Shown here: positions 10,889 to 12,980 of the stretch, piece after piece
How the letters are laid out: each line of letters opens with the position of its first letter
How positions within the stretch are numbered: the first letter of the stretch is position 1
UHGV virus genome: UHGV-1775856
From: a virus
Strand: one strand, 5' to 3'
Length of the DNA stretch: 15,357 bases
Program-made: the position numbers and the translations under genes
The notes under the pieces: generated by a model
Database searches by the model: none
The model's input: the letters and a program-made list of their open reading frames with translations, nothing else
What the model was told of the DNA's origin: nothing

Positions 10889-10906
10889 GAGTCATCCCTT
10901 GTATTT

Positions 10907-10931
10907 TAAAGCTCCTTCGGGAGCTTTTTTT
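10907..10931 (+). terminator. rho-independent terminator closing the structural operon
   Basis: AAAGCTCC (10908-10915), loop TTCG, GGAGCTTT, then a run of seven T. Confidence 0.75.
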
Positions 10932-10991
10932 ATAACTATTTTATATAAACATGCATCGATAACATTGTCTGGAGTTTTATGTTAGATTATT

Positions 10992-11008
10992 AATGTTCTA
11001 ATAAACTA
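10992..11008 (+). promoter_or_regulatory. C1-repressor-operator-like site upstream of the 210-aa gene
   Basis: AATGTTCTAATAAACTA matches the P1 C1 operator consensus ATTGCTCTAATAAATTT at 13 of 17 positions, including the CTAATAAA core, inside an AT-rich promoter-like region. Confidence 0.35.
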
Positions 11009-11059
11009 CAATTATTGAGGTAGATGTTTGTGCCTGTACTGTTAAAGGGGGACTCTAAA

Positions 11060-11656
11060 ATGGCTGTGATTCCAATGTCGTACTCCCCGGGTACTGTCGC
11101 TCGTCGATTTTCGATCCTGGACGGAGTTACCATCCAGGGTGTGCTTTACCAGGTTATATGGGATTCCAAAACCCCATTTGCAGCTGTAATAGAGGCTGCG
11201 CCTTCTATTATCGATGGTGATATGCGCCATAAGGTTGTCGCTACTCTTGAACTTCAACGTCGCCCGCAGCTTGAAGGCGTACTGGTAAGGAAGTTCTGGG
11301 AGGATAGCGATGTTGCCCAGATTGAAGGTATCGTGGTTGATGGAACCGTCCGGGATGTCGGTTTAGCTACTTTTGTTTACGAAACCGTAGCCTCAAAAGC
11401 TGGTGTTGTTTTGCTCAGTGATAATGAGCAATACGAAGGTGGAAAAGCTCTTTGGCAACACATCGCCCGTCGCTCTTCCGAGCTAAAAGTGTTTATCCTT
11501 GACACCGATGCCGCTCAGTATTACCCGTTTGACGGCGAACGTGTTTGCTATGACGGGGTAAGTATTCCTGAATCCGAGATATGGAGTGAACACCCAGATC
11601 GAAGTAAGCATGGGGTTGTTCTGGTCGCTGAATCCATAATTGGAAATGCGGCATAG
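11060..11656 (+). CDS. hypothetical protein, about 200 aa, function unknown; likely C1-controlled
   Basis: ORF track 11024-11656. ATG at 11060 has AAGGGGG about 9 nt upstream; the ATG at 11024 has GAGGT only 3 nt upstream. It has its own promoter region after the operon terminator. Confidence 0.65.
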   Translation: MAVIPMSYSPGTVARRFSILDGVTIQGVLYQVIWDSKTPFAAVIEAAPSIIDGDMRHKVVATLELQRRPQLEGVLVRKFWEDSDVAQIEGIVVDGTVRDVGLATFVYETVASKAGVVLLSDNEQYEGGKALWQHIARRSSELKVFILDTDAAQYYPFDGERVCYDGVSIPESEIWSEHPDRSKHGVVLVAESIIGNAA

Positions 11657-11838
11657 CAGTAAAAAATTCCTTGCTCCTTAAAAGGGGAGAGGGTTAATCT
11701 ACGTATGCTAAGCATAGAGATGGCCTCAGATTAATGTTAAGCGTCTTGCAGGACGCGTAATGTTATCTGGGGCGTTCTTCTATCTGCTTTTCGGGTAATG
11801 CCTGAAGCAGATAGCCTCAAGCACCCGTAACGATTGTA

Positions 11839-12165
11839 TCAATGTCTGGCTTTTTTTCTATAGAAATCACCAGGAAGGGTGAATATCCACATCAGAAGAA
11901 ATGTTGCAGCAAACATGATCCCTAATGGCCAGACCGCGCCAAAGAAAATCCATACTAAGATCTCCTCTGTTCGTTCTTTGCGGTCGATATCGACAAGCAT
12001 TCTTCGGCTGATCATGTATACACAGAAGCCAATACAAACATATCCTGCAAAAGCGATCGCTAACTGTAAAAAATCAGATTGCCTCTCCGACCTCAAACTG
12101 AAAACGCCAGGTGACTCCAGATTAGAGCAATCTATCACCCTCTGAATCCTGCCGGTATACCCCAT
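11839..12165 (-). CDS. possible small membrane protein with two hydrophobic helices, overlapping the 3' end of repL
   Basis: Two hydrophobic segments (LAIAFAGYVCIGFCVYMI and ILVWIFFGAVWPLGIMFAATFLLMWIF); no convincing Shine-Dalgarno at any candidate start (12165, 12015 or 12000); the position matches where P1 has the small rlf genes downstream of repL, by recollection. Confidence 0.3.
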   Translation of the reverse strand: MGYTGRIQRVIDCSNLESPGVFSLRSERQSDFLQLAIAFAGYVCIGFCVYMISRRMLVDIDRKERTEEILVWIFFGAVWPLGIMFAATFLLMWIFTLPGDFYRKKARH

Positions 12166-12980
12166 TGTTCGTTATCTTTATTTTTGGCTAAAACCGCATT
12201 AAGAGCTTCGTTTACCGTCATGCAATGCGGCAGATTATCGAAGTTTGATACACCGCCAATATCAGGAGAACGCTTGTTCTTCAGGTAAGCATATTTCCGC
12301 GCTGCCGCCTCTACTTTCTGCTTGAACTCATGTTTTTGAGCGCGTTTTTTGGATAACCGCAGATTGTCAGCCTTTGTTTTTGCCTCAGCGATCCATGAAG
12401 TCAATTTTTTGAGTCTGGTCGTTCCGGCACCGCCGGAAACTGATCTTTTTGTTTTTTTAACTTGTGACTTCTTATTCTTTATTGCCACGTCATCCTGACA
12501 GGGGGAGGGGGTATCATTTTGACATGGGGGTGTGGATAAAAAATTAAATAAAGCCAATGTCTTAGCGAGAACAGCTTTAACCTTGGTTGCCGCTGAAGAG
12601 ATCTTTAATTTGCTTTCAATCAGCGCATTTTTGGCTTGTTGTGCGAAGGCCAAAAAGGATGGTGTAAACCGGTACAGGTTAGCGCGACGTTCACGGTGAT
12701 CGCCGATAACAATCTCTACAGACAGAATTCCTTTGTTTACAGCTTCACGGAATGCACGAACGACGGTTGATTGGCTATAACCAGTTTCTGCCGCGATCAG
12801 GCGGTGAGGCTTGTGAATGAAGTATTCACTGGTTGTTGCCGCTAGATTTGCACATTGCGACAGGATATGCCCGGCGCTACGGGATAGACCGGAGTGTGTT
12901 ACAAAGCAGGCCAATTCATAGCCAGAAAAAGTAAAATCGCTCATCGTTATACAGCTCAGGAAAGTGACTTTAGCCAGCAT
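12135..12980 (-). CDS. repL: lytic replication protein RepL
   Basis: 281 aa, directly downstream of kilA in the same orientation and under a C1 operator, as in the P1 lytic replicon; the RepL length matches my recollection; the N-terminal third looks like a winged-helix domain. Confidence 0.8.
   Translation of the reverse strand: MLAKVTFLSCITMSDFTFSGYELACFVTHSGLSRSAGHILSQCANLAATTSEYFIHKPHRLIAAETGYSQSTVVRAFREAVNKGILSVEIVIGDHRERRANLYRFTPSFLAFAQQAKNALIESKLKISSAATKVKAVLAKTLALFNFLSTPPCQNDTPSPCQDDVAIKNKKSQVKKTKRSVSGGAGTTRLKKLTSWIAEAKTKADNLRLSKKRAQKHEFKQKVEAAARKYAYLKNKRSPDIGGVSNFDNLPHCMTVNEALNAVLAKNKDNEQWGIPAGFRG

What the first reader, a model, noticed from the sequence alone, without database searches (positions are those of the whole stretch)
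11657..11838. Gene-free, highly structured 180-bp region between convergent transcription units
The region contains a near-perfect 16-bp palindrome GCGTCTTGCAGGACGC (11741-11756), a 10-bp-stem hairpin (11780-11814) and a shorter palindrome (11699-11719). None has a clean U-tract, so they are not standard intrinsic terminators. They may be protein-binding sites, bidirectional termination or processing signals, or a small RNA. The region lies just downstream of the lytic replicon.
Basis: seen in the sequence. Interest (0 to 1): 0.35.

Follow-up and report, generated by a model that had tools for sequence, protein, structure and literature searches.

The report
Toxin-less hok/sok remnant in P1-like plasmid
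The "gene-free structured region" is the leftover front half of a well-known RNA-controlled toxin–antitoxin locus (hok/sok) that still carries the gene for the antitoxin RNA but has lost its toxin gene, so it is a recognisable, mostly ordinary relic with one mildly interesting question: whether the orphan antitoxin is still used.

Summary
The three palindromes exist at the stated coordinates, and the interval folds far better than shuffled sequence (z -5.4 and -4.6). It is not anonymous structure. On the minus strand, 11652-11826 matches Rfam RF01794 ("sok", which in fact models the hok mRNA leader) at 82.5 bits (threshold 59, E 2e-17). It is 98% identical to the leader of an intact hokW/sokW-type locus at the same position in other P1-like phage-plasmids.

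Each palindrome is a known hairpin of that RNA:
- 11780-11814 is the 5' stem-loop.
- 11723-11773, with the 16-nt palindrome at its tip, is the Sok target/terminator hairpin.
- 11699-11719 is the mok-start/Sok-recognition hairpin.

The window has no hok toxin ORF and no 3' fold-back element. A cassette carrying a 210-aa gene (ORF210, 11024-11656) replaced them, and its stop codon abuts the old hok ATG. About 22% of P1-like plasmids in PLSDB share this single-origin junction.

The sok promoter, RNA and terminator are kept in all of them, and substitutions preserve the hairpin. This suggests, but does not prove, continued use as an orphan antitoxin and/or as the ORF210 terminator. It cannot kill cells.

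Verdict: a degenerate member of a known family. Interest is low to moderate.

The parts
11652..11826 (-). Remnant of the hok mRNA 5' leader, running from the predicted transcript start (G11826, GGGTGCTTGAGG = 'tac' end) to the position of the former hok start codon
   Evidence: Rfam RF01794 match over model positions 1-157 of 157: 82.5 bits, gathering score 59, E 1.9e-17. Positions 11692-11948 are 98% identical to the leader of an intact hok locus in MH422554. The same model scores 114.9 bits on that intact locus, where the Hok CDS follows on the same strand.
11833..11860 (-). hok promoter: -35 TAGAAA (11860-11855), 16-nt spacer, TG-extended -10 TACAAT (11838-11833). The transcript start is inferred at G11826.
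   Evidence: Promoter scan, 9 of 12 matches with TG. The Rfam match starts 7 nt downstream of the -10. The promoter is destroyed in the SJ46-type relatives.
11780..11814 (-).
   Evidence: Perfect 10-bp inverted repeat. It corresponds to the first long helix of RF01794. Two of its pairs show compensatory changes across 50 distinct homologous leaders (A-U to G-C in 7 sequences, C-G to U-A in 4), and 98% of cells are paired.
11723..11773 (+). Sok terminator hairpin, which on the other strand is the sokT hairpin of the hok leader. The 16-nt palindrome 11741-11756 forms its tip.
   Evidence: 22 bp, -27 kcal/mol on the + strand against -18 on the - strand. The tip is an insertion relative to the Rfam consensus, but it is present in at least 129 hokW-type loci. 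The B allele differs by 8 substitutions and 1 indel yet keeps -26.7 kcal/mol; only 0.4% of random mutants are as stable.
11774..11781 (+). U-rich tail of the Sok terminator (GTTCTTCT). The G at 11774 is a change private to this window.
   Evidence: Thirteen of the 14 distinct hok-less sequences have T or a gap at 11774. Intact alleles read TTTTCTCT or TTTCTTCT here. Two independent upstream replacements (types B and C) break at about 11781.
11671..11700 (+). sok promoter: -35 TTGCTC (11671-11676), 18-nt spacer, -10 TAATCT (11695-11700)
   Evidence: It aligns with the sokW -10 (TAACCT), which was mutated to silence sokW in PMC8621323 (primers YO-421 and YO-422). Both hexamers are invariant in 14 distinct hok-less sequences, while 7 of the 18 spacer positions vary. 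It falls below the threshold of the consensus scan.
11705..11781 (+). Predicted Sok antisense RNA, about 75 nt (ends inferred, not mapped)
   Evidence: It is antisense to the leader. The sokW northern probe YO-592 corresponds to 11707-11736. The predicted fold is a single-stranded 5' tail followed by the terminator hairpin. It differs at only 2 positions (11719, 11774) from the Sok region of the intact P1-type locus.
The mok ATG is at 11715-11713 and its SD (GAGG) at 11727-11724.
   Evidence: Third helix of RF01794. This is the hypervariable segment among hok-intact alleles (at least 10 variants), with a conserved stem base. The window carries the P1-type variant with 1 mismatch. The tail duplex is -21 to -22 kcal/mol with P1-type leaders and -10 to -14 with other alleles.
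11652..11656 (.). Junction. The ORF210 stop codon TAG (11654-11656, +) overlaps the position of the former hok ATG (11654-11652, -).
   Evidence: Homology to ORF210 relatives in other contexts ends at 11655, and they stop at the same codon. Homology to the hok leader model ends at the ATG. The downstream frame encodes a non-Hok peptide. The junction 25-mer is shared by 21 IMG/VR loci.
11024..11656 (+). ORF210, the gene of the 10931-11691 cassette that occupies the place of the distal hok leader, the hok CDS and the fbi element
   Evidence: The hok region of the intact relative aligns with the window on both sides of 10931-11691 but not inside it. ORF210 is under purifying selection (28 synonymous vs 7 non-synonymous codon differences against SJ46). 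It matches phrog_7522, function unknown, with no Pfam, PADLOC or NCBIfam hit.

Best explanation
The interval is the toxin-less remnant of a hokW/sokW-type type I toxin-antitoxin locus in a P1-like phage-plasmid.

Anatomy. The minus strand carries the hok promoter and the 5' leader of the former hok mRNA: the 5' 'tac' end, the 5' stem-loop, the sokT hairpin and the mok start. The plus strand carries the complete sok gene: promoter, an antisense RNA of about 75 nt, and a terminator hairpin with a U-rich tail. The three palindromes are the three hairpins of this RNA.

How an intact locus works (established knowledge of hok/sok from plasmid R1 and of hokW/sokW). Sok pairs with the mok start region of the leader. 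This blocks mok translation and, through it, hok translation, and marks the duplex for RNase III. When the unstable Sok is lost, Hok is made and kills the cell.

What is different here. The distal leader, the hok ORF and the 3' fold-back (fbi) element were replaced by a cassette carrying ORF210. Its stop codon abuts the old hok ATG. The locus therefore cannot perform post-segregational killing.

Shown: the identity of the RNA element, the absence of the toxin and fbi, a single-origin junction present in about a fifth of P1-like plasmids, and retention of the sok segment in every one of them.

Inferred: sok is still transcribed, its hairpin now also terminates ORF210 transcription, and the hok promoter produces a harmless leader transcript antisense to the ORF210 3' end.
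For: - Identity. RF01794 matches at 82.5 bits (gathering score 59, E 1.9e-17) over the full model. The same model gives 114.9 bits on the intact locus of MH422554, where a 51-aa Hok (PF01848, E 2e-22; phrog_251 'MokW-like host killing') follows on the same strand. The window is 98% identical to that locus over 11692-11948.
- Toxin absent. tblastn with Hok finds nothing in the window (best E 0.46). The frame after the aligned ATG encodes an unrelated, non-hydrophobic peptide. No sequence complementary to the 5' end (fbi) exists apart from the 5' end itself.
- Junction. Homology to ORF210 stops at the native stop codon, and 21 IMG/VR loci share the junction 25-mer. In PLSDB, 125 of about 565 P1-like plasmids carry ORF210, and all 125 keep the sok segment at least to 11781.
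- RNA rather than DNA structure. Fold z-scores are -5.4 and -4.6. The 5' stem has compensatory pairs. The Sok hairpin is 9 kcal/mol more stable on the Sok strand, and its stability survives 8 substitutions and 1 indel in allele B (P about 0.004 by simulation).
- sok promoter. The hexamers are invariant while 7 of 18 spacer sites vary. They are homologous to the experimentally defined sokW -10 (PMC8621323).
Against: - No expression data were available. The Sok ends, promoter activity and termination are inferred by homology.
- The sok promoter matches only 6 of 12 consensus positions and is not called by the scan.
- The window has a private T-to-G change in the terminator's U-tail (11774) and an unpaired position in the 5' helix.
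- Rfam scores fall in hok-less copies (89.7, 82.5, 68.5, and none for SJ46). That is what simple decay would produce.
- The distal leader 11652-11691 resembles no sampled intact allele, so its origin is unresolved.
- The conservation statistics rest on few, phylogenetically related sequences.
Confidence: 0.88

Rival explanations
1. Pure relic. The hok gene was deleted by the ORF210 cassette, and the leftover leader and sok sequence has no present function. It persists only because it is short and because recombination with hok-bearing relatives keeps refreshing it.
For: - Rfam scores are lower than for the intact locus, and the match is lost in SJ46.
- The hok promoter and 5' hairpin are destroyed in type B and replaced in type C.
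- The window has a private mutation in the U-tail.
- Divergence of the Sok region between the window and SJ46 (about 18%) equals the divergence at fourfold sites of ORF210 (18.5%), so there is no rate slowdown.
- The RCS47 mosaic shows that sok alleles are swapped by recombination.
- The B-type recognition sequence has no hok-bearing partner in IMG/VR or PLSDB.
Against: - All 125 ORF210 plasmids keep the segment.
- Two independent upstream replacements stop exactly at the Sok 3' end.
- Hairpin stability is preserved through 9 changes (0.4% of random mutants).
- The promoter hexamers are untouched while the spacer varies (P about 0.016).
- The arrangement has survived about 18% synonymous divergence.
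Confidence: 0.35
2. Orphan antitoxin kept by selection. Sok is expressed without a cognate toxin and acts in trans on hok mRNAs of the P1-type allele carried by most sibling P1-like plasmids. It would neutralise their post-segregational killing (anti-addiction) when the plasmids compete or displace one another.
For: - The sok gene is complete, with invariant promoter hexamers, and is retained in 125 of 125 plasmids.
- The predicted Sok differs at 2 of about 75 positions from that of the intact P1-type locus. Its 5' tail pairs at -21 to -22 kcal/mol with P1-type leaders and at -10 to -14 with other alleles.
- About 78% of P1-like plasmids carry the matching hok.
- There is a precedent for an expressed orphan type I antitoxin, orzP-only loci in E. 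coli MG1655 (PMC11264685).
- The anti-addiction concept is documented for type II systems (PMC10305079).
Against: - There is no expression or phenotype data.
- The near-identity to the P1-type allele may simply reflect recent recombination.
- The B allele's recognition region has drifted with no known target.
- The review cited regards anti-addiction effects as rare and modest.
Confidence: 0.2
3. Co-opted terminator or insulator. What is conserved is the long hairpin with its U-rich tail. It serves as the transcription terminator of ORF210 (same strand, 67-125 nt after its stop) and keeps late-operon/ORF210 transcription from running antisense into the lytic replicon.
For: - ORF210 homologs in other contexts each have their own hairpin terminator within about 60 nt of the stop. 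The P1-like copy has none before the Sok hairpin.
- Structure is preserved while sequence drifts.
- The breakpoints of types B and C fall right after the U-rich tail.
- The hairpin is stronger on the + strand.
Against: - The U-tract is poor in this window (GTTCTTCT), and no terminator is called by the scan.
- This reading does not explain the invariance of the sok promoter hexamers.
- It is not exclusive of Sok expression.
Confidence: 0.3
4. DNA-level palindromes that bind proteins (a repressor, a replication or partition factor) next to the lytic replicon.
For: Only the presence of palindromes near repL.
Against: - Every palindrome is accounted for by a helix of a curated RNA family.
- The same elements occur in lambdoid prophages that have no repL.
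- The strand-asymmetric stability and the G-U pairs are RNA features.
- Reference P1 has the lytic replicon without this interval.
Confidence: 0.03
5. A complete, functional hok/sok killer locus whose toxin gene was overlooked.
For: A strong Rfam match, with the ATG retained at the hok start position.
Against: - There is no Hok-like ORF in any frame of the window.
- The sequence after the ATG is the antisense of a conserved gene.
- There is no fbi element.
Confidence: 0.02

Closest known systems
hokW/sokW of Sakai prophage 5 and the homologous 'MokW' locus of P1-like phages (e.g. MH422554)
   Same: The leader architecture is the same, including the 16-nt palindromic tip. The 5' end (GGGTGCTTGAGG), mok start, sok -10 position and Sok hairpin also match. 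The window is 98% identical to the P1-like intact copy over 11692-11948. sokW has been validated experimentally as an antitoxin (PMC8621323).
   Different: The 51-aa Hok ORF, the distal leader of the intact type and the 3' fbi region are missing, replaced by ORF210. The sok -35 is TTGCTC rather than TTGACC or TTGCCT.
hok/sok of plasmid R1 (Rfam RF01794; Hok family PF01848)
   Same: The logic is the same: a leader with tac end, sokT and mok start, an antisense Sok with a single-stranded 5' tail plus terminator hairpin, and a sok promoter lying over the hok Shine-Dalgarno region. The full-length Rfam match is above threshold.
   Different: The Sok hairpin is about 16 nt longer, and the recognition sequence differs. 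There is no toxin, no fbi and no dcb, so the fold-back/3'-processing activation pathway and killing cannot occur.
Inactivated chromosomal hok loci of E. coli K-12 (Pedersen and Gerdes 1999, cited in PMC11264685) and the IS-disrupted hokW loci seen here
   Same: These are hok loci disabled by DNA rearrangement while sok and the leader remain (IS insertions at the hok start in L044, L062, L081 and L108).
   Different: In those cases the hok ORF is still present, separated or deregulated by an IS element. Here the ORF is deleted and replaced by another gene through a precise junction that has since spread through a plasmid family.
Orphan type I antitoxin orzP (orz-only loci, E. coli MG1655)
   Same: An antitoxin sRNA gene retained without its toxin. 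For orzP, expression was confirmed by northern blot (PMC11264685).
   Different: It belongs to a different family (zor/orz) and is chromosomal. Expression of the orphan Sok has not been tested.

Membership tests
[quoted passage not shown] | Hok/Gef-family toxin ORF (about 50 aa, PF01848) downstream of the leader | tested here: not met
   The ORFs after the leader (53 and 55 aa) have no Pfam or PHROG hit and are not hydrophobic. tblastn with the relative's Hok gives a best E of 0.46 across the window. The relative's ORF scores E 2e-22.
[quoted passage not shown] | hok mRNA 5' leader with conserved sequence and structure (tac end, 5' stem-loop, sokT hairpin, mok start hairpin) | tested here: met
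   RF01794 full-length match: 82.5 bits against a gathering score of 59, E 1.9e-17. Compensatory pairs in the 5' stem.
[quoted passage not shown] | Antisense Sok RNA gene with its own promoter and terminator, overlapping the mok start region | tested here: inconclusive
   The sequence elements are present and homologous to the validated sokW promoter and probe region. The fold is a 5' tail plus hairpin. Transcription could not be tested, and the promoter is below the scan threshold.
[quoted passage not shown] | mok reading frame that starts in the leader and overlaps hok (translational coupling) | tested here: not met
   The mok SD and ATG (11727-11713) are kept, but the frame runs 55 codons into the antisense of ORF210. 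There is no hok to couple to.
[quoted passage not shown] | 3' fold-back inhibitory element (fbi) complementary to the 5' tac end | tested here: not met
   CCTCAAGCACCC with up to 2 mismatches occurs only as the complement of the 5' end itself. The intact relative has CCTCAATGCACCC downstream of hok.
[quoted passage not shown] | Post-segregational killing or toxicity relieved by Sok | not testable with these tools
   This needs genetics. With no toxin ORF, killing is not expected.
Rho-independent (intrinsic) terminator | G+C-rich hairpin followed immediately by a U-tract | tested here: inconclusive
   The scan calls no terminator in 11657-11838. The Sok hairpin (-27 kcal/mol) is followed by GUUCUUCU, with 5 U in 8. 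Homologous alleles have UUUUCUCU. The stem is interrupted, and the scan does not model interrupted stems.
Orphan type I antitoxin (as orzP-only loci) | Antitoxin RNA gene present while the cognate toxin is absent from the locus | tested here: met
   The arrangement is found in 125 PLSDB plasmids and at least 25 IMG/VR loci.
Orphan type I antitoxin (as orzP-only loci) | The orphan RNA is expressed | not testable with these tools

The most novel reading that the evidence does not exclude
The orphan sok gene is maintained by selection in about a fifth of P1-like phage-plasmids. It would act as a trans-acting 'anti-addiction' RNA that disarms the hok killer locus carried by the other four fifths, letting toxin-less plasmids displace or coexist with their hok-bearing siblings. 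It may at the same time serve as the terminator of the gene that replaced the toxin.
Probability: 0.2. Interest if true: 0.55.

Novelty: new member of a known kind. Interest (0 to 1): 0.25.

Why it matters
- Annotation. A region left blank or labelled 'hypothetical protein' in P1-like phage and plasmid records is a recognisable hok/sok remnant. Pipelines that look only for the Hok peptide will miss it. Pipelines that rely on the Rfam 'sok' hit alone would wrongly infer a working killer system.
- Biology. The locus is polymorphic in a clinically common plasmid family: about 78% of copies have hok and about 22% are toxin-less but keep sok. That sets up a simple experiment on whether an RNA antitoxin can outlive its toxin as an anti-addiction device or be recycled as a terminator.
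- If it is only a relic, it is still a dated example of how toxin genes are lost while their regulators persist.

Tried and rejected
- Intact toxin. I looked for a Hok ORF in all frames (tblastn, Pfam, PHROGs) and for an fbi element. None was found.
- Other RNA families. A permissive Rfam scan of 11350-11950 added only a chance snoRNA hit (24 bits against a gathering score of 70), which I rejected.
- Parent allele of the distal leader (11652-11691). None of 100 hok-intact loci carries it, so its origin is unresolved.
- A hok-bearing partner for the B-type Sok allele. Two IMG/VR scans and a PLSDB search returned only hok-less loci.
- Independent hok deletions. The four 'other' loci turned out to be IS insertions with hok still present kilobases downstream.
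- Function of ORF210. There was no Pfam, PADLOC, NCBIfam or PDB-sequence hit. The AlphaFold model is mediocre (pLDDT 69.5) and gives only weak GNAT/HAT1-like matches (E 0.02, TM 0.39), which is not enough for an assignment.
- RNAalifold on the leader alignment chose an alternative 5' hairpin and gave almost no covariation term (-0.62). The loci had been collected with a fixed 26-nt pattern, so the central hairpin is uninformative there.
- Literature searches found no description of hok/sok, intact or truncated, in P1-like phage-plasmids.

Full report
**Observation**

- GCGTCTTGCAGGACGC lies at 11741-11756.
- A perfect 10-bp inverted repeat has arms at 11780-11789 and 11805-11814.
- A 13-nt palindrome, TATGCTAAGCATA, lies within 11699-11719.

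The interval lies between the stop of a plus-strand 210-codon ORF (11024-11656) and the stop of a minus-strand 108-codon ORF (11839-12165) that follows repL (12135-12980). The flanks are therefore convergent, and the lytic replicon is indeed next door.

The structure is far beyond chance. The minus-strand RNA 11826-11652 folds at -59.4 kcal/mol against -38.1 +/- 3.9 for dinucleotide shuffles (z -5.4). The plus strand 11700-11800 gives z -4.6.

**Identity**

A scan of the whole window against Rfam gives a single hit above a curated threshold: RF01794 'sok', 11652-11826, minus strand, 82.5 bits (gathering score 59), E 1.9e-17, covering the whole model.

Despite its name, the model is in the sense of the hok mRNA. 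In the related P1-like phage MH422554 the same model scores 114.9 bits. There it is followed, on the same strand, by a 51-aa ORF annotated MokW that matches PF01848 Hok/Gef (E 2e-22) and phrog_251.

The window is 98% identical to that locus from 11692 to 11948. The family is the hokW/sokW type, shown experimentally to be a type I toxin-antitoxin pair in Sakai prophage 5. That paper's sokW probe and its promoter-mutation primers map onto window 11707-11736 and onto the hexamer at 11695-11700 (PMC8621323).

**Anatomy**

On the minus strand:
- A TG-extended promoter (TAGAAA, 16 nt, TACAAT, 11860-11833) sits 7 nt upstream of G11826, where the Rfam match and the conserved GGGTGCTTGAGG 5' end begin.
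Across 50 distinct homologous leaders, two of its pairs change on both sides and stay paired.
- The 16-nt palindrome is the tip of the long sokT hairpin. It is an insertion relative to the Rfam consensus, but it is present in every one of 129 hokW-type loci recovered from IMG/VR.
- The short palindrome is the hairpin that holds the mok Shine-Dalgarno sequence and ATG (11727-11713). This is also the hypervariable segment among intact alleles, presumably the Sok recognition determinant.

On the plus strand lies the sok gene:
- Promoter: -35 TTGCTC (11671-11676), an 18-nt spacer, -10 TAATCT (11695-11700).
- RNA: a predicted transcript of about 75 nt with a single-stranded 5' tail.
- Terminator: a 22-bp hairpin (11723-11773, -27 kcal/mol) and the tail GUUCUUCU.

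The hairpin is 9 kcal/mol stronger on the Sok strand because of G-U pairs. This is an RNA signature, not a DNA one.

**The toxin is missing**

- After the ATG that aligns with the hok start (11654-11652), the sequence is the antisense of ORF210. The resulting 53- and 55-codon frames are not Hok-like.
- tblastn with the relative's Hok finds nothing in 15 kb.
- The 3' fold-back element complementary to the 5' end is absent.
- Aligning the intact locus to the window shows that 264 nt (distal leader, hok, fbi) are replaced by 761 nt (10931-11691) carrying ORF210.
- ORF210 homologs in unrelated contexts end at the same ...AA-stop, and DNA homology to them stops at 11655. The junction is therefore exactly ORF210-stop/hok-ATG (CATAG/CTATG), possibly formed through microhomology.
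- ORF210 is a real gene, with 28 synonymous and 7 non-synonymous codon differences against SJ46. Its function is unknown.

**Population view**

- The junction 25-mer occurs in 21 IMG/VR contigs, and two further loci carry small indel variants of it. All are P1-like.
- In PLSDB about 565 plasmids carry the leader. Of these, 125 have ORF210 and the junction, and the rest match only from 11688 onward. That is the pattern of the hok-intact relative and was verified in the IMG/VR set, where 100 of 129 loci encode Hok.
- The hok-less loci fall into three types:
  - Type A (this window) has the complete leader.
  - Type B (SJ46-like) has the hok promoter and 5' hairpin scrambled.
  - Type C (L008, L105) has a 1.75-kb two-gene insert replacing ORF108's end, the hok promoter and the 5' hairpin.
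- In types B and C the conserved sequence resumes at about 11781, the end of the Sok terminator tail. The minimal unit retained everywhere is thus the sok gene.

**Is the remnant still used?**

For:
- It is retained in 125 of 125 ORF210 plasmids.
- Alleles A and B differ by 8 substitutions and 1 indel in the hairpin, yet fold equally well (-27.0 and -26.7 kcal/mol). Only 0.4% of random mutants with the same load do so.
- Both sok promoter hexamers are invariant in 14 distinct hok-less sequences while 7 of 18 spacer sites vary (hypergeometric P about 0.016, sequences not independent).
- The arrangement has outlived about 18% divergence at fourfold sites.

Against:
- The Sok region evolves as fast as those fourfold sites.
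- Rfam scores decline in hok-less copies.
- This window has a private T-to-G change in the U-tail.
- Sok alleles are shuffled by recombination, as in RCS47.
- The B-type recognition sequence has no hok-bearing partner anywhere I could search.

I conclude that the segment is probably still transcribed and probably serves at least as the terminator of ORF210. ORF210 has no other hairpin downstream, although each of its homologs elsewhere has one. A trans-acting anti-addiction role is possible but unproven. The predicted Sok differs at 2 positions from that of the intact P1-type locus, and its tail pairs about 8-12 kcal/mol better with that allele than with other hokW alleles.

**Comparison and novelty**

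This works like hok/sok and derives from hok/sok, but it fails three defining tests: toxin ORF, mok-hok overlap and fbi. It is a degenerate member, not a functional killer locus.

It resembles the IS-inactivated chromosomal hok loci of E. coli and the expressed orphan antitoxin orzP (PMC11264685). It differs in that the toxin was cleanly replaced by another gene and the result spread through a plasmid family.

I found no paper describing hok/sok, intact or truncated, in P1-like phage-plasmids. The large Hok survey (bioRxiv 10.1101/2025.08.07.668861) searches by peptide and so would not see toxin-less loci.

The kind is known. The specific state is a new, modestly interesting member. Interest is 0.25.

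Noticed in passing
window 11024-11656 (+); L147-L154: ORF210 is a conserved gene of unknown function under purifying selection (phrog_7522). Homologs (70-87% identity) sit in at least two other contexts: E. coli chromosomal islands, convergent with a 545-aa gene next to an AlpA-type regulator, and between darA and ddrB in other P1-like elements. One source names it 'N-acetyltransferase'. The AlphaFold model (pLDDT 69.5) gives only weak GNAT/HAT1 matches (E 0.02, TM 0.39).
   Followed up: partly
window 10889-12134; L155 (P1), L003 (SJ46), L008 5773-7523: The stretch between bplB and repL is a cargo hot spot in P1-like elements. Reference P1 has pmgF, rlfB and rlfA there. Most plasmids have ORF108 plus hok/sok. 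This window has ORF108, the sok remnant and ORF210. SJ46 adds a Lom-like gene. L008 and L105 carry a two-gene insert (a 351-aa ParA-like ATPase and a 123-aa protein) that may be a defence module.
   Followed up: partly
alignment A2 columns 110-131 = window 11700-11721; loci L026-L145: Among 100 hok-intact hokW-type loci, the roughly 20 nt around the mok start (the Sok 5' tail target) are hypervariable, with at least 10 alleles, while the flanks are almost invariant. This looks like diversification of Sok-hok recognition specificity among co-resident prophages and plasmids.
   Followed up: partly
L044, L062, L081 (one insertion type) and L108: In lambdoid prophages, mobile elements are inserted at or just before the hok start codon (GGCTAT|TG... 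and CAAGGAGA|TG...). The hok ORF continues kilobases downstream. This is a second, independent way of silencing the toxin while keeping sok.
   Followed up: partly
window 11839-12165 (-): ORF108 (phrog_3772, unknown function) is hydrophobic in its C-terminal half, overlaps the 3' end of repL by 31 nt, and ends 1 nt before the hok -10. It is conserved in most P1-like plasmids but absent from reference P1. A weak terminator-like hairpin (11882-11867) lies inside its 3' end.
   Followed up: no
alignment A2 columns 6-32 = window about 11823-11797 (-): RNAalifold prefers an alternative 5' hairpin (GUGCUUGAGGC / GYCUCRGGCAU) that competes with the 10-bp stem. This recalls the metastable 5' structures described for nascent hok mRNA. 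It has one-sided (G-U) changes only.
   Followed up: no
window 12135-12980 (-): The P1-type RepL protein (281 aa) matches no Pfam-A or NCBIfam model at E <= 0.01-0.1, although it is a long-studied replication initiator.
   Followed up: no
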